Of a stretch of DNA of 64,000 nucleotides, positions 7,773-61,442 are shown in pieces. A program made the position numbers and the translations under genes. Numbering within the stretch: the stretch's first letter is position 1; each line of letters begins with the position of its first letter. The DNA lies in the NCBI GenBank assembly GCA_964622215.1, contig CAZUNT010000009.1, positions 2,081 to 66,080 of the forward strand, given 5' to 3'. The notes under the pieces were generated by a model that worked only from the letters and a program-made list of their open reading frames with translations, did not search any database and had not been told where the DNA came from. The stretch is from an uncultured Caldilineaceae bacterium (GTDB lineage: Bacteria > Chloroflexota > Anaerolineae > 4572-78 > J111).

Positions 7773-7914
7773 GTTACTACTCAGGCTACCCCAAATTGAG
7801 TATTCCTGACCGCAGACCGCAGACTGCCGACCGCCATAATTCGCCCTGTACCCTGTCTTTTCGGCGGTCAGCGGTCAGCCGTCGGCGGTCGTGGGGGTAG
7901 GGCTGAGTAGTTAC
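7773..7914. mobile_element. MITE-like element, family A, with 8-bp target-site duplication
   Basis: Imperfect TIRs GTTACTACTCAG / CTGAGTAGTTAC. Arms are built of CCGACCG-type heptamers. Flanked by direct repeats ACGATTTT at 7765-7772 and 7915-7922. Confidence 0.65.
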
Positions 7915-37824: not shown

Positions 37825-38472
37825 CTAAACCCACTGCCAACATTTAAGCTGCCAGCCGTGCCCTTTTACGGCCAGGGCGGCTGCATAGCCGGGAGCGGGA
37901 GCCAAAGTCTGAATAGACCAGGGAGCGGCAGCTTGGCGGTCGCCGCCGATGCTTAATAATCCGGCCGCTTCCCCCGGTGCTAACGAAACGTCAAACCCGG
38001 CTAAGGGCTGCGCTAACCCATCGCCCAGGGCTTTAATGTAGGCTTCCTTCCGAGTCCAGCAGTTGAAAAAGGCTGCTTGTCTCTGATCCGGCGGAAGCGA
38101 CAGCCATACGGCGCTTTCCTGGGCCGAAAAGAAACGGGCGGTGATTTGGTCGGCTTCGGAAATGGCGCGGATATATTCAATATCTACGCCGATTTCCCGC
38201 TCGCAGGTCACGGCATAGATGGCCAGGTTTTGCGAGTGCGCCAGGTTAAAACAGAGCCTGCCTGTCTGCCCGGTAAGCGTTCCAGCCAGAGCCGGCTTGC
38301 CGTGAGGACCATAGCAAAACTGTAACCGGCCTGGCTCAAGCCCCAGGTATTGCCCCAAAATCATTCTGAGTATCCCCCGGCCAACAATGAACCGCTGCCG
38401 ATCCCGCTCAAAATGGAAGCGTTCAACCCGCAGGCGTTCGTCTGGGGTCAGCGTTTGGGCCAACTGCTGCAC
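37825..38472 (-). CDS. Sfp-type 4'-phosphopantetheinyl transferase (the true start is probably upstream of 38472)
   Basis: LTPDERLRVERFHFERDRQRF, FNLAHS, GVDIE, WTRKEAYIKA. The reading frame stays open and conserved-looking up to 38577. Confidence 0.85.
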   Translation of the reverse strand: MQQLAQTLTPDERLRVERFHFERDRQRFIVGRGILRMILGQYLGLEPGRLQFCYGPHGKPALAGTLTGQTGRLCFNLAHSQNLAIYAVTCEREIGVDIEYIRAISEADQITARFFSAQESAVWLSLPPDQRQAAFFNCWTRKEAYIKALGDGLAQPLAGFDVSLAPGEAAGLLSIGGDRQAAAPWSIQTLAPAPGYAAALAVKGHGWQLKCWQWV

Positions 38473-38566
38473 CCGCGTGGCTGGCTGATCTAATACCGCG
38501 CACCAGACATGAATCTCATCGAACGCCGCCAGTTTGGCCGGTTCCGGCGGGGCGGGCCAGGAACAT

Positions 38567-38785
38567 CTAAGAGTCAGTGGACCCCTCCATTTTTTTTCTC
38601 AGGCTAAGAGGCCGCATGTCGGTCCAGACCTCTTTGATGTAGGCCAGGCAGTCTGCTTTGGGGCCGCTAAAACCCGCATCTCGCCAGCCCGGCGCGTTTT
38701 CCCGGTCGGCCGGCCAGATGGAATACTGTTCTTCATGATTGACAACAACTTTGTATATGGTATTGTCTTCCTGATCTTTATACAT
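38567..38785 (-). CDS. mbtH: MbtH-like protein
   Basis: [49 protein letters not shown]. The classic three-Trp MbtH signature. Confidence 0.95.
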
Positions 38786-38831
38786 TTTATCACTATTCCT
38801 TCAAAACCACTCATCAGGGGTTTGTTTTTTA

Positions 38832-41800
38832 TTACTTCGATGGCGGGGGTAGAAAGCCCCTACGAATAAAATATGACAGGTATACCCCAAACCGTTCGGC
38901 GTCAACGACAGGGCAGGTCAGATCAGAACCGGCCAGGGCATTTGTCAGATTCTCGGAGCCAAATTCAGGCGCTCGCTCTTGAGTGAATAGTTCAGGCATG
39001 GTCAGCATCGCTTCTCCTGGCGCTCGTTCGATGTAAAAGGGTAACAGCGAATATAAAGCATTCTCTGTAGAGTGTCCAACCTGTTTCATTAGCAGATTCA
39101 GCCACTGTTTATAGGGCGTCTGCTGCACCGGGTAGCCAAAAGCCGCCAGCCATTCGGCCAGCCGGCCCAGGGGCAAGCGGTGAGGCGTCAGCGTGTGAAA
39201 AACCTGGCCCCACGACTGCGACCGGAGGGAGAGGTAGATGATAGCCCGGCTGACAAAATCTACGGGGGTAAGCCGGGTGATTTCGTCCAGATCGGGCATC
39301 TCTCCTAATTGGATACAGCCTTTGATGAATCGGCATAAATAATCATCCGTGTTCCAGGCGCCGGTTTGGCTGTGTCCCACCACCGTTCCGGGCCGGTAGA
39401 TCGATACAGGCAGACCCCGCTCCCGGGCGGCCACAACCAGTTTTTCGGCTACCCACTTGCTCTGGGCGTAACCGAACAACAAGCTGTCACTGTGGCCTAC
39501 TTCGTCTTGCTCCCGGATGAGCTGCTTTTGGAGGTAGCCTAGCGAATCAAAAACGGAGATGGTCGAAACATAATGCACCGGGATGGCCTTGAGCCGGGTC
39601 GCCAGGCGCAAAACTTCCTGGGTTCCCAGGACATTGGCCGGTTTGAGTTTATGGTAGGGGTAGACAAAGTTAACCACCGCGCCGTTGTGATAAATGGCGT
39701 CCAGTTGACCGGCCAAATGCTGAAATTCTGAGGTTGATAGCCCCAAATAGGGTTGAGCCAGGTCGCCTACCACCGGGATAACCCGGGTAGTTAAGTGGGG
39801 ATGGTGCAGGAGATAAGTTTCAAAGTTCCGGTAGATTTTTTGGCGGCCCGCTTCGGCGTCGGCAGCGCGGACCAGGCAGTAAATGTGAGCCGAAGTTTGC
39901 TGCAAGAGTTCATACAACAGAAAAGCGCCTAGAAAGCCGGTAGCGCCGGTTAAAAGGATCGAAGCCGGATGGGCAGGCGGGGCTGGGAGCGGCGGCACAG
40001 CCGGGGGCCGAATAGCAGGGTCGAGGACGGCCTCGGCCTTAAAATCGATGCTTGGGGCAGTCGCAGCGGGGCCGGCGCGGCGAGTCAGATCGATGGCTTG
40101 GGCTAACCCGGCGACAGTTGCTGTGGTAAAAAATTCGCGTAGTGATAGTTCTACCTGAAAAACCTCACGCACCCGCAAAACCAGTTGTGTGGCTAACAGC
40201 GAATGTCCCCCTAACTCAAAAAAATCGTCGTGGATACCAACCCGCTCCAGGCCCAGAATTTCGGCCCAGATCGTAGCCAGCATTTCTTCCGTCGGATAGC
40301 GAGGTAAGGTGTAAGATTCACTTACTTCCGGCCTGGCGGAATCAGGTGCGGGTAAGGCTTTACGATCAATTTTGCCGTTGGGCGTCAGAGGCAGGGCCGC
40401 CAGGAAGACGAAACTGGATGGAATCATATAGTCGGGTAGGGTTTGTTTCAAAAAATTCCGCAGGTCGCTGTTGCGGGGCCTATCTCCCGGATGGGTGACG
40501 AGGTAGGCCACGAGTTGTTTTTGGTCTGACCCATCCTGGTTACTGCGGAACAACATCACGGCTTCACGCACGGCGGGATGGCGTCTTAAAGCGGCTTCAA
40601 TCTCGCCCAACTCCACCCGAAATCCCCGAATTTTGATCTGATGGTCCAGCCGGCCCAGGAATTCGATGTTACCGTCGGGCAGGTAGCGGGCCAGATCACC
40701 GGTCTTATAGAGACGACTGCCAACCACCGACGGCAGGCCGTTAAACGTTGGTACCTCCTCGGTGGCGATCGGCCGTTGTCCGTTAGCGGCCGAGCTAAAG
40801 GGATTTGGAATAAATTTCTCGGCGGTCAATCCTGGCCGGTTGAGGTAGCCGCGAGCCAGGCCGGCCCCACCGAGATACAGCTCACCGGGAACGCCGATGG
40901 GCACGGGCTGCAACTGCGCATCCAACAGGTAAACCTGGGTATTGGCAACCGGGCGGCCGATAGTCGCCGGCCCCTGGCTGCTGCGGAGGGCAAAGGTGGA
41001 GTAGGTGGTATCTTCGGAAGGTCCGTACAAATCAAAAACCCGTTGGACACTTTTCTGACGATAAAGCTGTTGTACCAATTCCGGGCGGAGCGGCTCACCG
41101 GCCAAGTTGACGGTTCGAACCGAAAGGGGCAAATCGCCCAGGCGTAATAACTCAGTCATAGCCGAGGGAACGGTATTGACCAGCGTAACCTGATGGGCGG
41201 CGGGCAAGGTAGGCAAGTGCAGAGCGTTCTCAACCAGAATGACTCGCCCGCCCCAACTCAAGGGCACAAACAGTTCAAACACGGACAGGTCGAAGTTGAT
41301 GGAGGTGGAGGCCAGTACCCCGGCCAGGTCGTCGGCGGTAAAGATTTGGCCGGCCCAGGCGACCAAGGCGACCGGACTGTGATGCTCGATGGCGACGCCT
41401 TTGGGCTGGCCGGTGGAGCCGGAGGTAAACAGGACGTAGGCCAAATTCTGAGGCGTCACTTCGCCGGCGGGGTTGTCGGCGCTGTGTTGGGTAATGGTCG
41501 GCCAATCCCGATCCAGGCAGACCAGCCGGGCGGAATGGCGGGGCAGCTTTTTGATAAGGCGCTGTTGGGTCAACAAGAGAGGGGTTTGGGTATCGGCCAG
41601 CATCCAGGCCAGGCGGTCGGGGGGATAGGTGGGGTCGAGAGGCAGATAAGCCGCACTTGCTTTGAGGATACCGAGCAATCCTACGACCATTTCCAGCGAG
41701 CGTTCCACGCAGAGGCCGACGATGACCTCCGGCCCTATCCCCTGCGCCCGCAGATAATGCGCCAGTTGGTTGGCCCGCCGGTTTAACTCGCCGTAAGTGA

Positions 41801-43298
41801 GGGTTTCGCTCTGGTAGGTGAGAGCATTGGCTTCAGGTATTTGCGCGACCCGGGCTTCAAACAGGTGATGGAGACACTGCTCTTGGGGGTAGTCGGCGGC
41901 GGTGTTGTTCCACTCAACCAGCAGTTGGCGCTGTTCGGCGGCGGTCAAGATGGATAAGTCCGACAGGCGAGCAGCAGGTTGGTCAACCATACCTTCCAGC
42001 AAAGTCTGAAAGTGGCCAAGTATCCGGCTGATGGCGGCGTGGTCAAAGTAGTCGCTGTCGTAGCTGAAACGCAGCCACAGGGCCGGCCCCGGCTCGACGA
42101 TGATGGTCAGGGGATAGTTGGTCTTTTCAAAAAAGTGGACATTACGAATGGTGATATGCTGGCCTTGCGCCGAACTCGGTTGGCTAACCGGATAATTCTC
42201 AAAAATCAGGATACTCTCAAACAAAGCTTGGCCCCGCGCTACCTCGCTCCAGCCCTGAACCTGGGCTAAGGGGCTGTATTCGTAATGGCGAGCTTCGATC
42301 TGCCGGGTCTGAAGTGTTTTGAGCCAGGCTGCCAACGTTATCTGCGGCGATACTGTAACCCGAACCGGCAGGGTGTTGATAAACAGCCCCATCATCGTCT
42401 CAACACCGCTCAGGTCGGCCGGACGCCCGGAAACGACTGCGCCAAAGAGTACATCCGCCTCACCACTGTAGCGGCTGAGGAGGATGGCCCAGGCTCCTTG
42501 TACCAGCGTGTTGAGGGTGACCTGGTACTGTCGGGCCAGAGCTTGCAGGGCCGTTGTAGCGGCCGGTGAGAGTTGTACTTGCTGCTCGGCGTATTCGTGT
42601 TCAGGACTCGACCCACTGCCCGGCAAGCGGTCAAAAAACAGCCGGGTTGGAGTGGTAAAACCTCTCAGTGTTTGCCGCCAGTAGGTCTCAGCTTGACCCA
42701 AATCTTGTTGTTGTAGCCAGGCAATGTAATCCCTGTAGGGACGGTCGGCGGCAAGGGGTAAATCTTCGCCGCGACAGCGGGCCTCATATAAGGTAAATAC
42801 CTCATTAAACAGCCTGGAAGCGCTCCAGCCGTCAAGCAGCAGGTGATGGAAGCTCCAAATAAAATGGTAACTGTGTTCAGCCAGGCGAATCAACACCAGG
42901 CGCATAAGCGGCGCTTTGGCCAGGTCAAACCCTTGCCGCCGGTCAGCTTGTAAAAAGGACTCTAATTGCCGTTGTTGTTCATCCGGCAGCATGTTGCGCC
43001 AATCGTATTCAGTCCAGGGCAATTTAACCTGCCGGCGGACCACCTGGAGTGGTTTGTCGCGGCGTTCCCACATAAACAGAGTGCGCAGAACTGCATACCG
43101 CTCCACCGCCTGCTGCCAGGCCTGTTGAAAGGCCGAGCGGTTCAGTTCACCGTGCAGGGTACAATCTAACTGTTCAAAATATATACCCGACGCCGGCGCA
43201 TAAAGGGTATGAAACAGCATGCCTGCCTGCATCGGTGAGAGAGGATAAATGGCTTCGATGTCGTTTTTAGCCATTGTTGTTTTGCTTACTCCTTCCAC
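38832..43298 (-). CDS. NRPS module 3: C(DCL-type)-A-T-R (terminal thioester reductase)
   Basis: YPLSPMQAGMLFH, HHLLLDGWS, LAYVLFTSGSTGQPKG, YKTGDLARY, NGKIDR, FFELGGHSLLA, LLTGATGFLGAFLL, YAQSKWVAE. Confidence 0.95.
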   Translation of the reverse strand: MEGVSKTTMAKNDIEAIYPLSPMQAGMLFHTLYAPASGIYFEQLDCTLHGELNRSAFQQAWQQAVERYAVLRTLFMWERRDKPLQVVRRQVKLPWTEYDWRNMLPDEQQRQLESFLQADRRQGFDLAKAPLMRLVLIRLAEHSYHFIWSFHHLLLDGWSASRLFNEVFTLYEARCRGEDLPLAADRPYRDYIAWLQQQDLGQAETYWRQTLRGFTTPTRLFFDRLPGSGSSPEHEYAEQQVQLSPAATTALQALARQYQVTLNTLVQGAWAILLSRYSGEADVLFGAVVSGRPADLSGVETMMGLFINTLPVRVTVSPQITLAAWLKTLQTRQIEARHYEYSPLAQVQGWSEVARGQALFESILIFENYPVSQPSSAQGQHITIRNVHFFEKTNYPLTIIVEPGPALWLRFSYDSDYFDHAAISRILGHFQTLLEGMVDQPAARLSDLSILTAAEQRQLLVEWNNTAADYPQEQCLHHLFEARVAQIPEANALTYQSETLTYGELNRRANQLAHYLRAQGIGPEVIVGLCVERSLEMVVGLLGILKASAAYLPLDPTYPPDRLAWMLADTQTPLLLTQQRLIKKLPRHSARLVCLDRDWPTITQHSADNPAGEVTPQNLAYVLFTSGSTGQPKGVAIEHHSPVALVAWAGQIFTADDLAGVLASTSINFDLSVFELFVPLSWGGRVILVENALHLPTLPAAHQVTLVNTVPSAMTELLRLGDLPLSVRTVNLAGEPLRPELVQQLYRQKSVQRVFDLYGPSEDTTYSTFALRSSQGPATIGRPVANTQVYLLDAQLQPVPIGVPGELYLGGAGLARGYLNRPGLTAEKFIPNPFSSAANGQRPIATEEVPTFNGLPSVVGSRLYKTGDLARYLPDGNIEFLGRLDHQIKIRGFRVELGEIEAALRRHPAVREAVMLFRSNQDGSDQKQLVAYLVTHPGDRPRNSDLRNFLKQTLPDYMIPSSFVFLAALPLTPNGKIDRKALPAPDSARPEVSESYTLPRYPTEEMLATIWAEILGLERVGIHDDFFELGGHSLLATQLVLRVREVFQVELSLREFFTTATVAGLAQAIDLTRRAGPAATAPSIDFKAEAVLDPAIRPPAVPPLPAPPAHPASILLTGATGFLGAFLLYELLQQTSAHIYCLVRAADAEAGRQKIYRNFETYLLHHPHLTTRVIPVVGDLAQPYLGLSTSEFQHLAGQLDAIYHNGAVVNFVYPYHKLKPANVLGTQEVLRLATRLKAIPVHYVSTISVFDSLGYLQKQLIREQDEVGHSDSLLFGYAQSKWVAEKLVVAARERGLPVSIYRPGTVVGHSQTGAWNTDDYLCRFIKGCIQLGEMPDLDEITRLTPVDFVSRAIIYLSLRSQSWGQVFHTLTPHRLPLGRLAEWLAAFGYPVQQTPYKQWLNLLMKQVGHSTENALYSLLPFYIERAPGEAMLTMPELFTQERAPEFGSENLTNALAGSDLTCPVVDAERFGVYLSYFIRRGFLPPPSK

Positions 43299-43361
43299 CT
43301 GGAAAGGCTAAAGCAAGCTTTGGACCCCATTTCCAACTGAAATTGAATACATCCAAATGAG

Positions 43362-46300
43362 TTACTCCATTGTCTCGTTCAAATCGGCCAATAGGTCGTC
43401 CAGCTCGGCTTGACTTAAATTTGCTTCCGGGAAGTCAGACGGGGTGTAGCCCCCGGCTTCGGGAGATTGGCAGTGGAGGATGAGAGCGCGCAGGGCGGCC
43501 ATAAAATCTCCGGCCAGGCGTTCGATGGTGGAACGCCGGTGAATATTTTCGCTATAAACCCAGGCCAGTTGCAATTGGCCGGCTATGATACTACTCTCAA
43601 CTTCCAGTACATAACGCCGTTGCCCACGCGGGCTGTGCTCTGAGCCGCTCAACTCGCGGGCCAGGCGAAATAAAGTTGACCCGCCCAAAACCTGGTCGAA
43701 TTGGCCCAGGTAATTAAAGCTTATCTCGGCTTGAGGCTGAGCGCGTAGTTGACTTTTGATGGCCGAGTCTTCGCTTAGATAGCGCAGCAAGCCGTAGCCA
43801 ATCCCATGCTCTGGGATCCGGCGTAGTTGTTCTTTGATAGATTTAAGCGCTTCACCGGGCCGGTGCGCCGACCGCAAATCTAAACATACCGGAAAGATGG
43901 TGGTGAACCAGCCGACCGTGCGCGATAGGTCTACTCCGGGCATAATTTCTTCGCGGCCATGACCTTCCAAGTCAAGCCGTAGGGCGGGGCTGCCCGTCCA
44001 TTCGGTCAGCGTCTGCGCCAGGGCCGTTAACAATACCTCATTGATTTGCGTGTGATAAGCAGCCGGCACATCCTGGAGTAGAGCGCGAGTCTCTGCGGTG
44101 GTGAGCGCCACCGTCACCGTGCGGGCCGAGGCTTCAGGGTTAGTCTGGCGTCCTTCCGGGTAGTCGATAGGAAGCGGCGGGATCGGCAGCGGTGATTCGG
44201 CCAGCCAGTGGGCCAACCCGGTCTGTTCGGTGGCCCGCTTTTTAGCCGCTTCAGCCAAACGTTCGGCCCATTGTTTATAGGAAGTGGTCTTGGCCGGCAG
44301 GTGGACAACCTCACCTTGCTCTAGTTGCTGGTAAGCCGTTTGTAAATCTTCCAGCAGGATACGCCAGGACACACCGTCAACAACCAGGTGATGGATGACG
44401 ATAAGTAAACGGTTTGGCTGCTCCGATCCCAGGTCAAGCAGAGCTACCCGTAACAGCGGTCCCTGGGTCAGGTTCAAGCTGGCCTGTAATTCGGCAGCGG
44501 CTGCCTCAATCACCGTGCCTGGCTCGATTGCCCCACGCGCAGCCAAATCAAGATGGGTAAAAGGCGTGTGCTCGGCCAGATCGGTCTCGATCTGCTGCCA
44601 GTTCCTCTCTTTACCCCCCGCTAGGGGAATGGAAGAGGAGGGATAAAACCTCATCCGAAGCGCATCATGATGAACCAGCAAGTACTGGATCGCTTGCTCC
44701 AGCAATAACGGGTTCAAAGGCTGTTTAGCCTCCAGTAACATCGCCTGGTTCCAGTAATGGGGGTCAGGTAAATTTTGTTCAAAGAACCAGTGCTGGATGG
44801 GGGTCAACGGCACGGGGCCGGTCACCGGACCCTGTTCGATGGAGGTTATTAAGGCTGTATCCGCTACTGCCGCCAACTCGGCAATGGTCTGATGTTGGAA
44901 GAATTGCCGGGGGGTTAGCCGAAGTCCGGCCTGATTGGCCCGAGCGATGATCTGAATACTGAGGATCGAGTCTCCACCCAGTTCAAAGAAGTTATCAAAT
45001 ACACCAACTCGTTCGATTTGCAGCACCTGGATCCAAATTTCGACCAACGTCTGCTCGATTTGATTCCGAGGGGCCGTGAGTGTTTTTTCTGCCGAGATGG
45101 GGCCGGCTTGATCCGGTACGGGTAGGGCGCGGCGGTCTATCTTGCCGTTGGGGGTGAGCGGCATTGCCTCCAGAAAAACAAAGGCGGAGGGAATCATATA
45201 CTCAGGCAGGGTTTGCTTGAGGAAAATTCGCAGTTCGGTCAGGGTGGGCCGGCGCTCCGGTTCAGCGACCAGATAAGCCACCAGTTGTTTTTGGCCTGGC
45301 CCATACTTGTCACTCCGGGCCAGTACGACTGTTTCCGACACGGTGGGATGCTGTCGCAGCGCCGCTTCAATCTCGCCCAATTCAATCCGATAACCGCGCA
45401 CCTTAACCTGGTGGTCCACCCGGCCCAGGAATTCTATGTTGCCATCCGGTAGATAGCGGGCCAGGTCACCGGAGTTATAAAGACGACTGCTGACCACGGA
45501 CGGCAGGCCGCTGAATACTGACGGTTCGGTTGCGGCAGGCGGGAGGTGGCGGTCGGCGATCGGGTTGAAGGGATTGGGAATGAATCTCTCGGCGGTCAAA
45601 TCGGGCCGGTTGAGATAACCCCTGGCCAGGCCGGAGCCGCCGAGATACAACTCACCGGGCACGCCGATGGGAACCGGCTGTAAGTGGGTGTCCAGAATAT
45701 AAGCCTGCACGTTGGCAATCGGGCGGCCGATGGAGATGAAGTGGGGCTGATCTCCACGCGGGCAAACCCAAAAAGTGGCGTCAATGGTGGCTTCGGTAGG
45801 GCCGTAGAGATTGATCAAATCTGCCGGCAATTGGGCATAGAAATGGGCTACCAGCTCAGGGGGCAGCGGCTCACCGCCGCAAAAAACTCGTTTCAGTGAG
45901 GTGCAAGCGGCAAATCCCGGCTCCGACACCAGCAGTTGCAGTAAAGAAGGGACGAGCTGCAGGATTGTAACCCGGCGTTCAGTAATCGTTTTGATGAGAT
46001 AGGCCGGGTCGGCATGCCCACCTGATCGGGCCAGGACCAGCCGCGCTCCGGCGAGTAGGGGCGCGTAAAATTCCCACACCGAGGCATCGAAACTAACCGG
46101 CGTTTTTTGGAACACAGCATCAGTTTCGTTTAACGGGAAGGCCGTTTGCAGCCATTGCATATGGTTGGCGATGGCTCGGTGTGAAATCATCACCCCTTTC
46201 GGCCGGCCGGTGGAGCCTGAGGTATAGAGGACATAGGCCAGGTTATCCGGTGTTATTTCGCTGCGCAAGTTTTTATCAGGTTGATTGGCGATAGTTTCCC

Positions 46301-48275
46301 AATCAGTATCCAAACAGATGAGTTTTGCCTCCTGCTTAGGTAAACGCTCGACCAGGCGGTGTTGCGTTAACAGCACCGGCGCTTGGGCGTTGGCCAGGAC
46401 AAAGGCGATTCGTTCCAGGGGATAGGCGGGGTCTTGCGGGATATAGGCCCCCCCGGCTTTGAGGACGCCGAGCATCGCCACGACCATCTCCACCGAGTTC
46501 TCCAAGCAAATGCCCACCAGTACATCTGGCCTCACTCCTAAACTCCGCAAATAGTGGGCCAGTTGGTTGGAGCGCCGGTTTAGCTCCCGGTAAGTCAAAA
46601 TTTGTTGGTCGAAGATGACCGCGATGGCGTCAGGTGTCCGCTCGATCTGAGCCTCGATGAGTTCAGGCAGGGTTAAAGCCGGGGTATACTCTGCCTCCGT
46701 AGCGTTCCATTCCTCCAGTAATTGCCGTCGCTCGGCCAGGGTAAGCAACGGCAGGCCGGAGAGTCGCTGGTCGAGGTTGGCGACGATACTCTCCAGCAAA
46801 GTCTGGTAATGCCCTGTCATCCGGGTGATGGTGGTGGAGTCAAACAGGTCGGTGTTGTATTCCCATTTTCCCAGCACTCCCTGGGGTGTATCGGTTACGT
46901 ACAAAGTCAACTCAAACTTGGTTACACCCGTGTCAACTTCAAACGGGCTAACAGTCAGCCCTGCCAGTTTTAGCAGCGGCAGAGAGGGCTGTGGAGCAAA
47001 AGCTACCTGGAACAGCGGGTTGTGGCCCAGGTCTCGCTCCGGGTGCAACGCTTCGACCAATTTCTCAAAGGGTAAATCTTGGTGCGCCTCAGCTCCCAAC
47101 ATCGTTTCTCGAACTCGTCCCAGTAACTCCCGAAACGTAGGGTGGCCGGCCAGGCTGGTGCGCAAGACAAGGGTGTTGACAAAAAAGCCGATGAGTTCCT
47201 CCAACTCGCTCCGGTTACGGTTGGATATCGGCAGGCCCACAATGACGTCGTCCTGGCCGGTGTAACGATAAAGCAGCGTCTTGAACGCCGCCAGGAGGGT
47301 CATAAACAAGGTGATACCGACCTGTTGGCTTAAAACTCGCAGGGCCTCGCTCAATTCCTGGGGCAGCAGCCATGTTTGGGCCGCGCCCCGGTAGGTTTGC
47401 ACCGCGGGTCGGGAGCGGTCGGTGGGCAGTTCCAGGCTGGGCGGATGGCTGCCCAAGCACTGACGCCAGTAGGCCAGTTGCTTTTCCAGCACCTCTCCTT
47501 GTTGCCACTGCCGCTGCCAAACGGCAAAGTCGGCGTATTGAAGGGACAGCTCAGGCAGCAATGCGGGTAATCCGGCCAGGTAAGCCTCGTAAAGCAGTGC
47601 TAGCTCGTGGAAGAGAACCTCCATAGACCAGCCATCGGTGATGATGTGATGCATAACCAGGAGCAATACGTGCTCCGTCTCGACCAATTGGAATAGAGCA
47701 ACTCGTAGGAGTGGACCTTGAGCCAGGTTAAAGGGGCGGCGAGCCTCCTCTTGCATTTTGGATTTTAAAGTTTGAATTTTAGACGGCTTATCTGATGAAG
47801 GGTGATCCTGGATTTGGGTCAAATCGTAAATCGTAAATCGTAAATCCAAAATTGGGTGGATAACTTGCACCGGTTGTCCGTCCACCGTTACAAAAGTGGT
47901 GCGCAAGATTTCGTGGCGGCGCACCAGGTCGCCCAGGCTTTGTTCCAGCGCGGTCATGTTGAGCGGGCCGACCAGGTGAAAGGCAGCCGTTTCATTGTAG
48001 GTGGGGCGGCCCGGTTCCAACTGGTCGAAAAACCAGAGGCGCTGCTGGGCAAAAGACAGCGGCAAATTTTGCCGGCGTGAGGCCGGCGTGATGGGTGGGG
48101 AGCCAGCTTGCACCCGGCGAAAAAATTCAAGGATTTCGGTTTTGCGGGCGCTCAATTCGGCCCGCAAGGCCGGGGTTACCGTCCCCTGGGGCGCGTTGTA
48201 ATGCAGCCGATCTCCATCGGCCGAAAGGTTGATCCCCAACTGGCGGAGATGGGATAGAAACTCGAGTAAAGTCAT
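43362..48275 (-). CDS. NRPS module 2: N-terminal docking domain-C(LCL-type)-A-T-E
   Basis: TubC-like N-terminus (LLEFLSHLRQLGINLSADGDRL), LSFAQQRLWF, MHHIITDGWS, LAYVLYTSGSTGRPKG, GGDSILSIQ (the T type found before E domains), HHLVVDGVSWRIL. Confidence 0.95.
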   Translation of the reverse strand: MTLLEFLSHLRQLGINLSADGDRLHYNAPQGTVTPALRAELSARKTEILEFFRRVQAGSPPITPASRRQNLPLSFAQQRLWFFDQLEPGRPTYNETAAFHLVGPLNMTALEQSLGDLVRRHEILRTTFVTVDGQPVQVIHPILDLRFTIYDLTQIQDHPSSDKPSKIQTLKSKMQEEARRPFNLAQGPLLRVALFQLVETEHVLLLVMHHIITDGWSMEVLFHELALLYEAYLAGLPALLPELSLQYADFAVWQRQWQQGEVLEKQLAYWRQCLGSHPPSLELPTDRSRPAVQTYRGAAQTWLLPQELSEALRVLSQQVGITLFMTLLAAFKTLLYRYTGQDDVIVGLPISNRNRSELEELIGFFVNTLVLRTSLAGHPTFRELLGRVRETMLGAEAHQDLPFEKLVEALHPERDLGHNPLFQVAFAPQPSLPLLKLAGLTVSPFEVDTGVTKFELTLYVTDTPQGVLGKWEYNTDLFDSTTITRMTGHYQTLLESIVANLDQRLSGLPLLTLAERRQLLEEWNATEAEYTPALTLPELIEAQIERTPDAIAVIFDQQILTYRELNRRSNQLAHYLRSLGVRPDVLVGICLENSVEMVVAMLGVLKAGGAYIPQDPAYPLERIAFVLANAQAPVLLTQHRLVERLPKQEAKLICLDTDWETIANQPDKNLRSEITPDNLAYVLYTSGSTGRPKGVMISHRAIANHMQWLQTAFPLNETDAVFQKTPVSFDASVWEFYAPLLAGARLVLARSGGHADPAYLIKTITERRVTILQLVPSLLQLLVSEPGFAACTSLKRVFCGGEPLPPELVAHFYAQLPADLINLYGPTEATIDATFWVCPRGDQPHFISIGRPIANVQAYILDTHLQPVPIGVPGELYLGGSGLARGYLNRPDLTAERFIPNPFNPIADRHLPPAATEPSVFSGLPSVVSSRLYNSGDLARYLPDGNIEFLGRVDHQVKVRGYRIELGEIEAALRQHPTVSETVVLARSDKYGPGQKQLVAYLVAEPERRPTLTELRIFLKQTLPEYMIPSAFVFLEAMPLTPNGKIDRRALPVPDQAGPISAEKTLTAPRNQIEQTLVEIWIQVLQIERVGVFDNFFELGGDSILSIQIIARANQAGLRLTPRQFFQHQTIAELAAVADTALITSIEQGPVTGPVPLTPIQHWFFEQNLPDPHYWNQAMLLEAKQPLNPLLLEQAIQYLLVHHDALRMRFYPSSSIPLAGGKERNWQQIETDLAEHTPFTHLDLAARGAIEPGTVIEAAAAELQASLNLTQGPLLRVALLDLGSEQPNRLLIVIHHLVVDGVSWRILLEDLQTAYQQLEQGEVVHLPAKTTSYKQWAERLAEAAKKRATEQTGLAHWLAESPLPIPPLPIDYPEGRQTNPEASARTVTVALTTAETRALLQDVPAAYHTQINEVLLTALAQTLTEWTGSPALRLDLEGHGREEIMPGVDLSRTVGWFTTIFPVCLDLRSAHRPGEALKSIKEQLRRIPEHGIGYGLLRYLSEDSAIKSQLRAQPQAEISFNYLGQFDQVLGGSTLFRLARELSGSEHSPRGQRRYVLEVESSIIAGQLQLAWVYSENIHRRSTIERLAGDFMAALRALILHCQSPEAGGYTPSDFPEANLSQAELDDLLADLNETME
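47810..47847. repeat. In-frame heptamer tandem repeat inside the NRPS2 C domain
   Basis: GGATTT..(AAATCGT)x3..AAATCC on the + strand, encoding ..LDLRFTIYDL.. on the - strand. Confidence 0.7.
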
Positions 48276-51200
48276 ATTTCGCCCTCTTCACGCTCTCCCC
48301 AATCCCCGGGCTGGGGGCCGGGAAGCCCGCCCTGGGCGGCCCATCGGAGCGTTTCGATATGTTCGGCCAGGGTGGCGACCGTAGGAGTTTCGAACATGGT
48401 ACGCAAAGGTAATTCTAACTGGAGCGTATCGCGGAGCCGGGAGATAATGCGGGTAGCCAGGAGGGATTGGCCGCCCAACTCAAAGAAGTTGTCTTGAACG
48501 CCAACTTGTTCCAGGCCCAGTACCTCGGCCCAAATACCGGCCAGGAGGGCCTCAGTAGGGGTACGCGGAGCTGCGAAAGTTTCCCCAGATTGGGGCCGAG
48601 CGAAATCGGGTGGGGGCAGGGCGCGGCGATCTACTTTGCCGTTGGGCGTTAAGGGGAGCGTATCTAGTAATATAAACACGGACGGCAGCATATAGTCAGG
48701 TAGTTTTGCCGGCAAGAAACGGCGCAACTCAAATATTAGGGAGGTGGGTATAGGGTGGGGAGCTTGTTTGGGAACCAGGTAAGCAATCAAACGTTTGTCT
48801 CCTGCCGGGTCTTCATTAACCACGACCACACTTCCCTGTACGGCCGGGTGCTGATTCAGCGCCACTTCAATCTCACCCAATTCAATCCGGTAGCCACGTA
48901 CCTTGACTTGGTGATCCCGGCGCCCGAGAAACTCAAGGTTACCATCCGGCCGGTAGCGGGCCAAATCACCGGACCTATAAAGGCGGGACGCTTCGCGTGA
49001 GGGCTGAAGGATGAAGGGAGGGGTTTCATCCTTCTTCTGCTTTTCTTTCATCCTGCCACCTTCATCCTTCATCCTTCCAAAGGGGTTTGGGATAAATTTT
49101 TCGGCGGTGGCCGTCGGGTGATCGAGGTAGCCCCGGGCCAGGCCGGCTCCGCCAAGATATAACTCGCCGGGAATACCGATAGGCACGGGCTGCAACTGCT
49201 CGTCCAGGAGATAAATCTGGGTATTGGCAATGGGGCGACCGATGGTGGCCGGCCCCTGGCTATCTCGAAGGGCAAAGGTAGAGTAGGTTGTATCTTCAGA
49301 GGGACCGTAAAGGTCAAAAACTCGTTGAACGCTCTTTTGCCGATAAATCTGCTGCACCAATTCGGGGCGGAGCGGCTCGCCGGCCAAGTTGACGGTTCGG
49401 ACCGAAGCGGGCAAATTGCCGGCCCGCAACAATTCAGCCATAGCTGAGGGGACTGTATTAATCAGAGTCACTTGTCGGGCTGCGGGTAAGGTGGGCAAAT
49501 GCAGAGCATTCTCGGCCAGAATAACGCGCCCGCCCCAACTCAAGGGCACAAATAGCTCAAACACCGATAGGTCGAAATTGAGCGAGGTGGAGGCCAATAC
49601 ACCGGCCAGGTCACTCGCCGTAAAAATCTGACCCGCCCAGGCCACCAGGGCGACCGGGCTGCGGTGCTCAATGGCGACCCCCTTGGGCTGACCGGTTGAA
49701 CCTGAGGTAAACAAAACATAGGCTAAATTTTGCGGCGTCACCCCACTGTCCGGATTCTCAACGTTGTACCGGGTAATGGCCGGCCAGTCTTTGTCCAGGC
49801 AGATGACGCGAGCCTTATGTTCCGGTAGTTTTTCAACCAGCCGCTGTTGGGTTAGTAACACCGGAACCTGGGTATTGGCCAACATCAGGGCCAGCCGTTC
49901 CTGGGGATAAACGGGGTCGAGCGGCACATAAGCCCCACCCGCCTTGAGGATGCCCAACAGCCCTACCACCATTTCCAGGGAACGGGTTATACAAAGGCCG
50001 ACGATAACCTCCGGGCCGACTCCGTGCGCTTGCAGATAATGCGCCAGTTGGTTGGCCCGCTGGTTCAATTCTTGATAGGTGATCATCCTTTCCCGCTCTC
50101 TGGCCAAAAGGGAGGTGCTGGGGCGGGTGAACGGGGTCACGGCAATTGCTTCAGGCACTCGTTCCACCTGAGTTTCAAACAGTTGGTGCAAGCAGCGGTC
50201 GCGGGGATAATCGGCTTCAGTTTGGTTCCACTCTACCAACACCTGGCGGCGTTCGTCTTCCGGCAGGAGAGACAAATGGACCAGGGGTTGGTGAGGTTGG
50301 CTAATGATACTTTGGAGCAAGGTGCTGAACTGAGCGGCTATCCTGACCAGGTTAGACTCGGTCAGAACTTGCGGGTCATAGAGCCAGTAACAGGAATAGC
50401 TCGTTTCTTCCAGTGGAATGACCAGCGTCAAATTACTGTCAGCCGTTTCAGACTTGTGGGGATCGATTAGGTTCTCGACTTGTTCAACGATGACAGGCCA
50501 GAGAGGTTTTACCCCCGGTTGGGGTAATGAACTCAGTTCCGGGTATCTGGCCGGAACATCGCGGGCATAAGTCTGGTGATGATTGACTAACTCAACCCCG
50601 TCGCGCATGGCCTGGTAGACCTGCTCAAAGGGCCACATGGGATTTAGCTCAATTCGTAGGGGAACTGTTGCGCTGAACAAGCCCTCCAATCCGGCCAGGC
50701 TGCGCTTCAACTCGGCCGGTTTGAAACCCAAATCAAAACAGCTAACCCCGTTAAGCCGGGCCAGGTAGGCAACCCAGGCCGCCAGTAGAAAATCGCTTAA
50801 CCGCCAGCCGGACTGTTGGTTCTGGAGGAAGGTATTAACTTCGGCGGGAATGGGCATGGGTAAACGAACTCTTCGCGCTGATTGGTCAGGTGTGGCATCT
50901 CTTTCCAGGTAGGGCAATGAAATGGGCTGTATCGTCGCCAGGCGCTCCACCCAGAAGGACTCATGCGGGCAAAGGGCTGCATACAGGGTGGTCATACGGC
51001 CGGTTATCCCCAGATCAAGGTCGGGCAGCCGGTAGCCCTCGCCCAGCCCAAATTGAGTGACGAGATCAGGAATCGCCAGAGGGCGACCATCTATAGTTAG
51101 CAACCGGCGGAGCAAAACCTGATGGGTGGCAGAGGCGACCTGAAGAAAATCAGGCCCCAGGTAGGTGATGGTCCCTGGCGGGACCGGAATTTTCGCGGTG

Positions 51201-51961
51201 AAGATTTCGACTTCTGAGACAAGGAGAAACTCTGGGCCCAGGAATAATTTTGGATAAGCGACCGGGTTGGGATACGGTCCAAAATGCAGCGCCCGAACCA
51301 GGGCCTCAATATCGGCGGCGGTTTGTTGCCACGAAAGCAGGCCACCGGCCGATGGTTTTTGGCAGCGCCAAAAGTAGGTGCGTTCGGCCAGATTTTGGGG
51401 GTGCGCCGGTACACGCCCACGCGCCAAATCATCAACTAACTCAGCAAATGAGCGTATCGCGGCGTCGTAGCATTTGGTGTTGAGTGTCAACGCGGTCTCA
51501 TCGGCAGCAAGATCAACAGGGACCTGTTTTAAGATATCGCCCGCGTTGACCTGGGGGGTCATCACGTGCCAGGTGACGGCGTAGGCGGTTTCGTGTTGAA
51601 GAATAGCCCAGGAGGTAGGGTAATGGCCGGCGTATTTGGGCAAAGGCCCGTCATGATAATTGATGGCCCCCCGCCGGGGTAAAGCCAGCACAGAGGGGGG
51701 AAGGATGACATCACTGGCGAGGCTGAACAGATAATCAAAGGAAGCCTGGCCCAACCAGGCGATAAGATCAACTGGGGTGGGTAAGCCCTTGTTTATTTTA
51801 AGATGGGGGATGTTTTTTTTTGCCGCCCATCGGAGTAGTGATATATCGGAGGAAACAACACCACAAGCGGTATGTCCGGCCTGGAGCAGAATGTCGATAC
51901 ACTGAATGGGCAGCGTCCCTTCACCAATGATCACACTGCTTAATTTGTCATAGCCGCTCAT
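48272..51961 (-). CDS. NRPS loading module: formyltransferase-like domain - C-terminal half of a C domain - A - T
   Basis: INYHDGPLPKYAG and NAGDIL (Fmt-type Asn/His/Asp), a C-domain-like region without HHxxxDG, LAYVLFTSGSTGQPKG, GGQSLLA. The 4-nt ATGA overlaps the NRPS2 start. Confidence 0.9.
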   Translation of the reverse strand: MSGYDKLSSVIIGEGTLPIQCIDILLQAGHTACGVVSSDISLLRWAAKKNIPHLKINKGLPTPVDLIAWLGQASFDYLFSLASDVILPPSVLALPRRGAINYHDGPLPKYAGHYPTSWAILQHETAYAVTWHVMTPQVNAGDILKQVPVDLAADETALTLNTKCYDAAIRSFAELVDDLARGRVPAHPQNLAERTYFWRCQKPSAGGLLSWQQTAADIEALVRALHFGPYPNPVAYPKLFLGPEFLLVSEVEIFTAKIPVPPGTITYLGPDFLQVASATHQVLLRRLLTIDGRPLAIPDLVTQFGLGEGYRLPDLDLGITGRMTTLYAALCPHESFWVERLATIQPISLPYLERDATPDQSARRVRLPMPIPAEVNTFLQNQQSGWRLSDFLLAAWVAYLARLNGVSCFDLGFKPAELKRSLAGLEGLFSATVPLRIELNPMWPFEQVYQAMRDGVELVNHHQTYARDVPARYPELSSLPQPGVKPLWPVIVEQVENLIDPHKSETADSNLTLVIPLEETSYSCYWLYDPQVLTESNLVRIAAQFSTLLQSIISQPHQPLVHLSLLPEDERRQVLVEWNQTEADYPRDRCLHQLFETQVERVPEAIAVTPFTRPSTSLLARERERMITYQELNQRANQLAHYLQAHGVGPEVIVGLCITRSLEMVVGLLGILKAGGAYVPLDPVYPQERLALMLANTQVPVLLTQQRLVEKLPEHKARVICLDKDWPAITRYNVENPDSGVTPQNLAYVLFTSGSTGQPKGVAIEHRSPVALVAWAGQIFTASDLAGVLASTSLNFDLSVFELFVPLSWGGRVILAENALHLPTLPAARQVTLINTVPSAMAELLRAGNLPASVRTVNLAGEPLRPELVQQIYRQKSVQRVFDLYGPSEDTTYSTFALRDSQGPATIGRPIANTQIYLLDEQLQPVPIGIPGELYLGGAGLARGYLDHPTATAEKFIPNPFGRMKDEGGRMKEKQKKDETPPFILQPSREASRLYRSGDLARYRPDGNLEFLGRRDHQVKVRGYRIELGEIEVALNQHPAVQGSVVVVNEDPAGDKRLIAYLVPKQAPHPIPTSLIFELRRFLPAKLPDYMLPSVFILLDTLPLTPNGKVDRRALPPPDFARPQSGETFAAPRTPTEALLAGIWAEVLGLEQVGVQDNFFELGGQSLLATRIISRLRDTLQLELPLRTMFETPTVATLAEHIETLRWAAQGGLPGPQPGDWGEREEGEI
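48986..49078. repeat. In-frame GGATGAA/TTCATCC heptamer palindrome inside the NRPS1 A domain
   Basis: GAAGGATGAA (49006-49015) / TTCATCCTTC (49025-49034) hairpin plus three or more further TTCATCC copies. It encodes GRMKDEGGRMKEKQKKDETPPFILQPSREAS. Confidence 0.75.
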
Positions 51962-61289: not shown

Positions 61290-61442
61290 GTAATTACTCA
61301 GCCGACCCTATGTCTCAGCAACCCTGACCGCCGACCGTCGACCGCTGACCGCCGAAAAGACGGGTTACAGAGCGGATTATGTCGGTCGGCGGTCTGCCGT
61401 CAGCGGTCATGTGGCTCATTGGGGCTGACGGCTGAGTAGTTA
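61290..61442. mobile_element. MITE-like element, family A, inverted relative to 7773-7914
   Basis: Ends GTAATTACTCAGCC / GGCTGAGTAGTTAC. The centre CCGCCGAAAAGACGGGTTACAGAGCGGATTATG is the reverse complement of the 7834-7866 core. Confidence 0.6.

What the first reader, a model, noticed from the sequence alone, without database searches (positions are those of the whole stretch)
40716..49078. All three A domains carry a 27-31-aa insertion at the same loop, and the inserted DNA looks like the genome's intergenic repeats
GrsA has about 5 residues between FxxNPF and (S)RLY(K/R)(T/S)GD. Here:
- A3 has 27 residues (40716-40796: SSAANGQRPIATEEVPTFNGLPSVVGS).
- A2 has 27 residues (45486-45566: NPIADRHLPPAATEPSVFSGLPSVVSS).
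- A1 has 31 residues (48986-49078: GRMKDEGGRMKEKQKKDETPPFILQPSREAS).

The A1 insert is a GGATGAA/TTCATCC heptamer palindrome that includes a 10-bp perfect inverted repeat. A1 and A3 are otherwise near-identical, yet they carry unrelated inserts. The A2 and A3 inserts share GGCCTGCCGTC(C/G)GTGGT, which resembles the GGTCTGCCGTCAGCGGTCA arm of MITE family A. A fourth case, (AAATCGT)x3, lies in frame in the NRPS2 C domain (47810-47847). Repeat elements therefore appear to be tolerated in, or recruited to, a specific surface loop of megasynthase domains.
Basis: seen in the sequence. Interest (0 to 1): 0.6.

Follow-up and report, generated by a model that had tools for sequence, protein, structure and literature searches.

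The report
Genomic heptamer repeats inside NRPS adenylation loops
In an uncultured Anaerolineales (Chloroflexota) bacterium, one surface loop of all three amino-acid-activating domains of a peptide synthetase is filled, in frame, with copies of the genome's own 7-base hairpin repeats; these are recent, tolerated passengers that also sit in many other proteins of this genome, not a new enzyme feature.

Summary
All three A domains (genes on the minus strand) carry 27, 27 and 31 extra residues between NPF and RLYxxGD, the A6-A7 loop. The canonical loop has about 6 residues.

- **A1 insert:** a copy of the genome's GGATGAA/TTCATCC hairpin family (31 nt at 97% to an intergenic copy; 13-bp perfect stem).
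- **A2 and A3 inserts:** homologous to each other and significantly similar to the GACCGCC/GGCGGTC family that forms the arms of 'MITE family A' (0 of 300 controls reach their score).
- **Age:** the syntenic cluster of a same-genus genome has canonical loops in all three domains, so the inserts are recent.
- **Not artefacts:** three independent assemblies carry them. One differs by a 3-nt indel in the A1 hairpin loop.
- **Copying:** A3 is a mosaic, and its insert travelled inside an A2-like tract.
- **Structure:** AlphaFold gives the insert low confidence inside a confident fold.
- **Not NRPS-specific:** about a third of heptamer arrays in this genome lie in frame inside long ORFs, including IleRS and a histidine kinase.
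- **Where else:** long inserts at this loop recur only in Chloroflexota and cyanobacteria (0 of 41 domains in other phyla).

Best reading: tolerated, RPE-like in-frame repeat colonisation. The spreading mechanism is unknown.

The parts
48272..51961 (-). NRPS1: formyltransferase - partial C - A1 - T (initiation module; closest solved relative is LgrA)
   Evidence: Pfam PF00551/PF02911/PF00501/PF13193/PF00550; PDB best hits LgrA
48986..49078 (-). A1 loop insert, 93 nt / 31 aa: GGATGAA-arm - loop - TTCATCC-arm hairpin plus a TCACGCGAAGCG tail
   Evidence: blastn-short to C6:24204 (31 nt, 97%) and C96:2870; 24 family loci; DNA fold -16 kcal/mol, z -3.0, 13-bp stem; lag-7 0.51; absent in G001; present in Logan L101/L102 with a 3-nt indel; AF2 pLDDT 47-70
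43362..48275 (-). NRPS2: TubC-type docking - C - A2 - T - second condensation-family domain
   Evidence: Pfam
45486..45566 (-). A2 loop insert, 81 nt / 27 aa: degenerate (GACCGCC)n left arm and (GGTCNGC)n right arm
   Evidence: lag-7 0.49, reached by 0.1% of background windows; SW 43 vs control max 34; 29/34 match to the C89 element; no hairpin left (z +1.4); exact in Logan L103; absent in G001 A2
38832..43298 (-). NRPS3: C - A3 - T - thioester reductase (termination module)
   Evidence: Pfam PF00668/PF00501/PF00550/PF07993
40716..40796 (-). A3 loop segment, 81 nt / 27 aa. The first 7-8 residues (SSAANGQR) look like the ancestral loop. The repeat-derived part is PIATEEVPTFNGLPSVVGS(R), homologous to the A2 insert
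   Evidence: lag-7 0.39, reached by 1.5% of background; SW 35, 0/300 controls; 22/25 match to the C153 element; filled vs empty site comparison; exact in Logan L103 and L104
47753..47851 (-). Heptamer element in the C domain of NRPS2: (ACGATTT)3-4 arm ... AAAATTC/AAACTTT/AAAATCC/AAAATGC arm, read as LDLRFTIYDL...KPSKIQTLKSKMQ
   Evidence: strongest lag-7 peak of the region, 0.57; family has 65 loci, 26 in ORFs; G001 has unrelated sequence of nearly equal length; three Logan contigs break here
7773..7914 (.). Reference copy of 'MITE family A', whose hairpin arms are (GACCGCN)n / (GGTCNGC)n, the family to which the A2/A3 inserts belong
   Evidence: sequence shown; pattern matches
61290..61442 (.). 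Second copy of MITE family A, with arm GGTCTGCCGTCAGCGGTCA

Best explanation
The extra residues are translated copies of this genome's dispersed heptamer-hairpin repeats. They entered, or overwrote, the solvent-exposed A6-A7 loop of the adenylation domains after this species split from its nearest sequenced congener.

There were two events.
1. A young GGATGAA/TTCATCC hairpin landed in A1.
2. An older GACCGCC/GGCGGTC-type hairpin landed in module 2 or 3. It was then copied to the other module inside a recombination tract that runs from the A6 motif through the A-sub domain.

The inserts persist because the loop tolerates length and sequence change. Only copies that keep the frame and avoid stops survive. 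This explains why every coding GGATGAA copy seen is read either as RMKDE or, on the other strand, as FILHPSS. The inserts most probably do nothing for the enzyme.

Shown: repeat origin, recency, reality, module-to-module sharing, the genome-wide habit, and the predicted disorder. Inferred: neutrality, translation of the inserts, and how the DNA gets there.
For: **Repeat origin**
- A1 matches intergenic copies at 31 nt, 97%. The family has 24 loci, mostly inverted pairs.
- A2 and A3 score 43 and 35 against a library of 139 family loci; 0 of 300 GC-matched controls reach them. A1 serves as a negative control for this library and is not significant.
- Lag-7 periodicity supports a heptamer origin.

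**Recency**
- G001 contigs C121 and C257 are syntenic across about 30 kb.
- Their loops are SDTPGT, SPQPGQ and SSQPGQ.
- The loop indels are the largest indels in NRPS1 and NRPS2.

**Reality**
- Logan assemblies from ERR14964780, ERR14964774 and ERR4539747 carry the inserts.

**Low constraint**
- There is a 3-nt indel between strains.
- Hairpin potential is lost in A2.
- The insert has pLDDT 47-70 within a model of mean pLDDT 89.6.

**Copying between modules**
- Informative sites switch from A1-like to A2-like about 25-30 codons upstream of the insert.

**Generality**
- Arrays inside long ORFs: 10 of 24, 39 of 139 and 26 of 65 loci.
- Pfam or Pfam-annotated domains flank the insert in a histidine kinase, a cyclase, a STAND ATPase and IleRS.
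- IleRS orthologues carry different repeat types in one loop.
- G013 has two A domains with independent GGATGAA-type hairpins in the same loop.
- Long loops occur in 0 of 41 domains outside Chloroflexota and cyanobacteria, against 18 of 47 inside them.
Against: - No terminal inverted repeats and no target-site duplication are visible at any of the four sites. The repeats replace ancestral codons rather than simply adding to them. A classical insertion is therefore not demonstrated.
- The A cores of modules 2 and 3 differ strongly between G000 and G001 (38% and 32% identity). Orthology of those two domains is therefore only partial, although it is good for the loop flanks and A-sub of A2 (78%) and for all of A1.
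- Neutrality is inferred, not tested.
- The lag-7 signal of A3 alone is modest (reached by 1.5% of background windows).
Confidence: 0.8

Rival explanations
1. The inserts are an ancestral, lineage-specific protein loop conserved for function. Their resemblance to the repeats is coincidental or runs the other way.
For: A distant homologue in another genus (G013 C242) also reads G-x-x-K-x-E-G-G-R-x-K directly after NPF.
Against: - The syntenic same-genus cluster has canonical loops.
- The G013 inserts are themselves full GGCGGAA/GGATGAA-loop-TTCATCC hairpins at DNA level.
- The syntenic G013 cluster (C252) has no such insert.
- The shared peptide follows from the single stop-free reading frame of the repeat. 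The same RMKDE reading appears in a kinase, a STAND protein and others.
- Inserts at this site are unrelated in sequence across taxa.
Confidence: 0.03
2. The repeats are assembly artefacts: chimeric joins at repeats in a fragmented MAG.
For: The genome is a 321-contig MAG. Short-read assemblies do break at the heptamer array in the C domain.
Against: - Contigs from three other runs, at 99.4-99.99% identity to the window, contain the inserts with intact flanks.
- A2 and A3 are exact in those contigs, and A1 differs only by a 3-nt in-frame indel.
- All inserts keep the frame and lack stops.
Confidence: 0.02
3. The inserts are retained because they do something. As RNA or DNA hairpins they might pause translation or transcription between A-core and A-sub. 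As peptides they might act as flexible docking or regulatory loops near the MbtH-binding face.
For: - All three A domains of the only complete NRPS cluster carry one.
- The site recurs in other lineages.
- The A1 segment folds significantly better than shuffles (z -3.0).
- An MbtH gene lies downstream.
Against: - Different, unrelated sequences occupy the site.
- A2 has lost all hairpin potential (z +1.4) and A3 is marginal.
- The orthologous cluster works without them, judged by its intact motifs.
- There is an indel polymorphism between strains and low pLDDT.
- The same repeats sit in many unrelated proteins.
Confidence: 0.1
4. The arrays arose on the spot by replication slippage of a chance heptamer seed in the loop (a local microsatellite), not by import of a pre-existing element.
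For: - There are no TIRs or TSDs.
- The net gain in A2 and A3 is exactly 63 nt, which equals 9 heptamers.
- There is a 3-nt slippage polymorphism.
- A possible relic of the ancestral loop (DETP against SDTPGT) lies between the two A1 arms.
Against: - The A1 insert includes the non-heptamer tail TCACGCGAAGCG and the GGCTGAAGGATGAAGG junction, found together in four other loci.
- Both arms of A2 have the polarity and sequence of dispersed elements.
- Local slippage does not create an inverted arm.
Confidence: 0.07

Closest known systems
Rickettsia palindromic elements (RPEs), as summarised in PMC10969869
   Same: Both are dispersed palindromic repeats that sit both between genes and in frame inside many unrelated, functional protein genes. 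They are read as extra peptide segments compatible with the fold.
   Different: - There is no sequence relation.
- The elements here are built from tandem 7-nt units in two inverted arms (about 60-100 nt), against about 150 bp for RPEs.
- The host is a free-living Anaerolineales with a 7-Mb genome.
- Several unrelated heptamer families are active at once, and they replace one another in the same loops.
STRR heptanucleotide tandem repeats and small dispersed repeats of heterocystous cyanobacteria (my own knowledge: Mazel et al. 1990; Elhai et al. 2008; not retrieved)
   Same: Both have a 7-nt tandem unit and many families per genome. Cyanobacterial A domains in my sample carry repeat-like peptides in the same loop.
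   Different: - The host is Chloroflexota, and HIP1 is not enriched (42 copies).
- The arrays here come as inverted pairs (hairpins).
- A third of them are intragenic.
REP/REPIN elements mobilised by RAYT Y1 transposases (PMC3116915, listed)
   Same: Both are short hairpin-forming dispersed repeats. One Y1_Tnp gene is present in this genome.
   Different: - REPs are extragenic.
- The flanks of the Y1 gene carry a different repeat with no heptamer arrays, so no link is shown.
Interrupted adenylation domains, e.g. TioS A-M-A, PDB 5WMM (one search list; sites from my own knowledge)
   Same: Both show that A domains tolerate foreign sequence in particular surface loops.
   Different: - Those insertions are folded catalytic domains at A2-A3 or A8-A9.
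- Here the inserts are short disordered peptides at A6-A7, a site not on the usual list of permissive positions.

Membership tests
NRPS adenylation domain (ANL superfamily) | AMP-binding (PF00501) plus AMP-binding_C (PF13193) profile matches | tested here: met
   All three proteins match, E 1e-77 to 1e-103
NRPS adenylation domain (ANL superfamily) | Core motifs A3, A5-A8 and A10 intact around the insert | tested here: met
   TSGSTGxPKG, GELYLGG, Y(R/N/K)(S/T)GD, GRxDHQVKxRG and NGK(V/I)DR are present
NRPS adenylation domain (ANL superfamily) | A-domain fold | tested here: met
   AF2 pLDDT 89.6, pTM 0.86; Foldseek TM 0.78-0.85 to ApnA A1, LgrA and EntF
RPE-like in-frame palindromic repeat colonisation | The inserted DNA belongs to a multi-copy dispersed family of the same genome | tested here: met
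   A1. A2/A3. C-domain site:
RPE-like in-frame palindromic repeat colonisation | Palindromic (hairpin-forming) element | tested here: inconclusive
   A1 yes (z -3.0); A3 marginal (z -1.7); A2 no (z +1.4). Both arm types are still recognisable in A2
RPE-like in-frame palindromic repeat colonisation | In frame, stop-free, in otherwise intact genes, at many unrelated loci | tested here: met
   75 of 228 arrays lie in long ORFs. Domains flank the insert in a histidine kinase, a cyclase, a STAND ATPase and IleRS
RPE-like in-frame palindromic repeat colonisation | Sequence homology to Rickettsia RPE families | not tested
   Not expected. The claim is 'works like', not 'is a member'
MITE (non-autonomous transposon) | Terminal inverted repeats and target-site duplication at the insertion | tested here: not met
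   The inserts contain only the heptamer arms, not the GTAACTACTCAG-type ends of MITE family A. No duplication flanks A1; A3 has only a repeated CGN codon
Cyanobacterial STRR | Tandem heptanucleotide unit | tested here: met
   Lag-7 autocorrelation
Cyanobacterial STRR | Host is a (heterocystous) cyanobacterium | tested here: not met
   IleRS is 85-87% identical to Anaerolineales MAG proteins; HIP1 is not enriched
Interrupted A domain | Insertion of a folded auxiliary domain between A2-A3 or A8-A9 | tested here: not met
   The site is A6-A7. The insert is 27-31 aa with pLDDT 47-70 and no Pfam match

The most novel reading that the evidence does not exclude
The heptamer-hairpin families of Anaerolineales, and perhaps of cyanobacteria, may not transpose. 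They may instead spread by a copy-and-replace process, such as template switching or short-patch conversion at hairpin-stalled forks, that overwrites loop-coding DNA without TIRs or TSDs. This process would continually rewrite surface loops of proteins, including essential ones such as IleRS. It would also mark the A6-A7 loop as a general permissive site usable for NRPS engineering.
Probability: 0.2. Interest if true: 0.7.

Novelty: new variant of a known kind. Interest (0 to 1): 0.45.

Why it matters
- It shows that in-frame colonisation of proteins by selfish repeats, best known from Rickettsia, operates at scale in a free-living Chloroflexota lineage, with a different kind of element (inverted heptamer arrays).
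- It identifies the A6-A7 loop as a naturally length-tolerant site of adenylation domains. That is useful for tagging or engineering NRPSs.
- It warns annotators that such loops are not conserved features, and that they break short-read assemblies of biosynthetic clusters.
- The apparent replacement, rather than insertion, of ancestral codons raises a testable question about how these repeats spread.

Tried and rejected
- **Cyanobacterial origin:** suggested by the best NRPS hits, but rejected. HIP1 has only 42 copies and IleRS is closest to Anaerolineales MAGs.
- **Taxon by other routes:** no 16S gene is in the MAG. Cluster look-ups of GroEL and AtpB gave no names.
- **Plain blastn-short of the A2/A3 inserts:** only short, insignificant hits. 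Their repeat origin showed only with lag-7 and Smith-Waterman tests against a family library.
- **Repeat as the recombination junction of the A3 mosaic:** rejected. Informative sites switch about 25-30 codons upstream, at the A6 motif.
- **Read-level check:** Independent Logan contigs were used instead.
- **Exact look-ups of P0001 and P0002:** nothing found. The annotated 1480-aa form (P0271/P0328) did work.
- **Candidate mobiliser:** there is a single Y1_Tnp gene, but its flanks hold a different repeat and no heptamer arrays.
- **Literature:** searches found no paper describing repeats in A-domain loops.


Full report
**Observation.** The three large minus-strand ORFs are as follows.
- 48272-51961 is F-(partial C)-A-T.
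- 43362-48275 is dock-C-A-T plus a second condensation-family domain.
- 38832-43298 is C-A-T-R.

Together they form an NRPS for an N-formylated tripeptide released by reduction. The quoted peptides sit exactly at the quoted coordinates, between NPF and RLY(R/N/K)(S/T)GD. This is the loop between core motifs A6 and A7. It is not the A-core/A-sub hinge, which lies at A8 about 25 residues further on.

In 120 homologues, 136 of about 180 A domains have 8 residues from NPF to the Y of A7. Every solved A-domain sequence aligns up to query residue about 375 and resumes at about 400-404.

**Origin of the A1 insert.** blastn-short against the whole 7.17-Mb assembly finds 31 nt at 97% identity (C6:24204, E = 3e-8). 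It also finds 28 nt at 96% (C96:2870) and dozens of shorter hits.
- The genome holds 24 loci with tandem GGATGAA, most built as (GGATGAA/GGCGGAA)n - loop - (TTCATCC)n.
- The insert has the same layout. It has a 13-bp perfect stem, a DNA fold of -16 kcal/mol and z = -3.0.
- It also carries the TCACGCGAAGCG tail seen at four other loci.
- Its lag-7 autocorrelation is 0.51; none of 4184 background windows reach that value.

**Origin of the A2 and A3 inserts.** Direct BLAST shows nothing convincing, but several tests agree.
- Lag-7 periodicity is 0.49 for A2 (reached by 0.1% of background windows) and 0.39 for A3 (1.5%).
- The genome contains 139 loci of the (G/C)GTCNGC family, whose inverted arrays form the arms of 'MITE family A'.
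- In Smith-Waterman comparison with that library, A2 scores 43 and A3 scores 35. Three hundred GC-matched 81-nt NRPS controls give mean 24.2, sd 3.0, max 34. A1 scores 29, an expected negative.
- The best alignments place a (GACCGCC)n left arm in A2 (29 of 34 positions) and a (GGTCGGC)n right arm in A2 and A3 (22 of 25).
- The two inserts are homologous. Both run from CCGATCGCC (PIA) to GGCCTGCCGTC(C/G)GTGGT...AGT (GLPSVV(S/G)S). They share the same departures from the family consensus (GGCC for GGTC, GTGGT for GCGGT) and differ by a heptamer indel.

**Age.** Contigs C121 and C257 of the same-genus genome G001 are collinear with window 31.6-61 kb. Flanking genes are 57-88% identical. NRPS1, NRPS2 and NRPS3 are 73%, 64% and 52% identical.
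- The three G001 loops are SDTPGT, SPQPGQ and SSQPGQ.
- In pairwise alignments, the loop gaps (25, 21 and 21 aa) are the largest indels of NRPS1 and NRPS2.
- One caveat applies. The specificity-conferring cores of modules 2 and 3 differ strongly between the two genomes (38% and 32% identity). However, the loop flanks and A-sub of A2 (78%) and all of A1 (87-89% core, 70% A-sub) are orthologous.

**Not an artefact.** Logan contigs from three other runs cover the region at 99.4-99.99% identity.
- Contigs from ERR14964780 and ERR14964774 carry the A1 insert with one in-frame 3-nt deletion in the hairpin loop.
- A2 and A3 are exact in the ERR14964774 contig, and A3 is also exact in the ERR4539747 contig.
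- Three of these contigs end inside the (ACGATTT)n array of the C domain, which shows that this array is a genuine repeat problem for short reads.

**Copying between modules.** A3 is about 90% identical to A1 in the core. From the A6 motif onward it is closer to A2 (73-85%). Informative sites change from A3=A1 (24 against 7) to A3=A2 about 25-30 codons upstream of the insert, and they stay A2-like downstream (13 against 30). The insert therefore lies inside the A2-like tract. One insertion followed by recombination explains both copies. The junction is at a conserved motif, not at the repeat.

**Genome-wide context.** The organism is an uncultured Anaerolineales: IleRS is 85-87% identical to proteins named 'Anaerolineales bacterium'. 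HIP1 is not enriched.

Heptamer arrays lie inside long ORFs, with at least 60 residues on each side, at these rates.
- GGATGAA family: 10 of 24 loci.
- GGTCNGC family: 39 of 139 loci.
- AAATCGT family: 26 of 65 loci.

These ORFs include real proteins.
- A histidine kinase, with the insert inside HATPase_c.
- A zinc-ribbon/cyclase protein.
- STAND ATPases.
- An HdrA/GltD-like protein, judged from its sequence only.
- IleRS.

Two STAND paralogues carry different repeat families at the same two loops. IleRS orthologues across the order carry GGTCNGC-type, AAATCGT-type or GGATGAA-like peptides at one loop.

Coding GGATGAA copies are always read as RMKDE, or on the other strand as FILHPSS. This is expected, because a perfect (GGATGAA)3 contains TGA in every frame.

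**Recurrence at this loop.** GGATGAA tandems occur in all six genomes of the genus and patchily beyond it.
- In G013, a non-syntenic cluster has two A domains with full GGCGGAA/GGATGAA-loop-TTCATCC hairpins after NPF. Its syntenic cluster has none.
- Other relatives (G003, G004, G038) carry other repeat-like peptides at this loop.
- In a broad sample, long loops are found in 12 of 28 cyanobacterial domains, 1 of 8 other Chloroflexota domains and 5 of 11 domains from Anaerolineales relatives. They are found in 0 of 41 domains from other phyla.

**Structure.** An AlphaFold2 model of the A1 domain (66-sequence alignment) has mean pLDDT 89.6 and pTM 0.86. Blocks covering the insert score 70, 54 and 47, while the flanking strands score 89 or more. 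The model superposes on ApnA A1, LgrA and EntF with TM 0.78-0.85. The insert is a looped-out, probably disordered segment between the strand ending in FIPNPF and the strand carrying A7.

**Mechanism.**
- Shown: repeat origin, recency, sharing between modules, tolerance in many proteins, and the frame filter.
- Inferred: neutrality for the enzyme, and translation of the inserts.
- Unknown: how the DNA arrives.

No TIR or TSD flanks any site. The A1 repeat abuts the NPF and RLY codons directly. The C-domain element replaces a stretch of nearly equal length (net +4 aa). A possible relic of the old loop (DETP against SDTPGT) lies between the two A1 arms. A copy-and-replace process fits better than cut-and-paste, but this is speculation. 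One Y1 transposase gene exists but is not associated with heptamers.

**Comparison and novelty.** The closest described phenomenon is the in-frame spread of Rickettsia palindromic elements (PMC10969869). The unit structure recalls cyanobacterial STRR heptamers (my own knowledge). I found no paper describing repeats in A-domain loops. Earlier unverified notes of this scan report similar cases in at least 19 other genomes.

I rate this as a new variant of a known kind. It is of moderate interest, mainly as a natural map of permissive sites and as a lead to an unexplained repeat-spreading mechanism.

Noticed in passing
G000 contig C314:2137-2157 (outside the window): Isoleucyl-tRNA synthetase carries a GGTCNGC-type repeat peptide (DRRQPTADGSQNMAVSGQRSAVNGQRS) in one loop. 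Orthologues from other Anaerolineales carry AAATCGT-type, GGATGAA-like or other repeat peptides, 15-44 residues long, at the same loop.
   Followed up: partly
G000 contigs C69:15048 and C95:12435 (outside the window): Two MalT-like STAND paralogues carry different heptamer families at the same two loops: after the Walker A motif, and before LEYLE(Q/R)xNLFIVPLDN.
   Followed up: partly
G000 contig C54:24589 (outside the window): A hybrid histidine kinase has a GGATGAA hairpin (GRRMKDENIGSDLPPSSFSLH) inside its HATPase_c domain. Pfam still matches across the insert.
   Followed up: partly
window 38832-48275 versus L013 (G001:C121): The specificity-determining cores of A2 and A3 are only 38% and 32% identical between the two congeners, and the A3 core of G000 is a copy of A1 (91%). 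The two species therefore probably make different tripeptides after recent A-core swaps.
   Followed up: partly
window 47823-47850: Three independent Logan contigs (L101, L102, L103) all terminate inside the (ACGATTT)n array in the C domain of NRPS2.
   Followed up: yes
window about 50010-50050 (P0003 residues about 610-625): There is an extra 12-residue segment (PFTRPSTSLLAR) just before the A1 motif of NRPS1. It is absent from LgrA and from A2/A3, has low pLDDT, and appears shared with G001. Its origin was not examined.
   Followed up: no
whole genome G000: The 'control' pattern (AAGTAGGAAGTAGG, the query read backwards) occurs 30 times here and up to 77 times in relatives. It is therefore another heptamer family rather than a neutral control.
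   Followed up: no
window about 37825-38790 (seen in L103 9066-10026): An MbtH-like gene and a phosphopantetheinyl transferase gene follow NRPS3. An SBP_bac_5 gene, a chemoreceptor-like gene and a ParA-like gene complete the conserved neighbourhood shared with G001.
   Followed up: no
G000 contig C42:12227-12568: This is the single IS200/RAYT-like Y1 transposase gene. It is flanked on both sides by a GGCTGAAGCGATTCTGTTGGCA repeat, not by heptamer arrays.
   Followed up: partly
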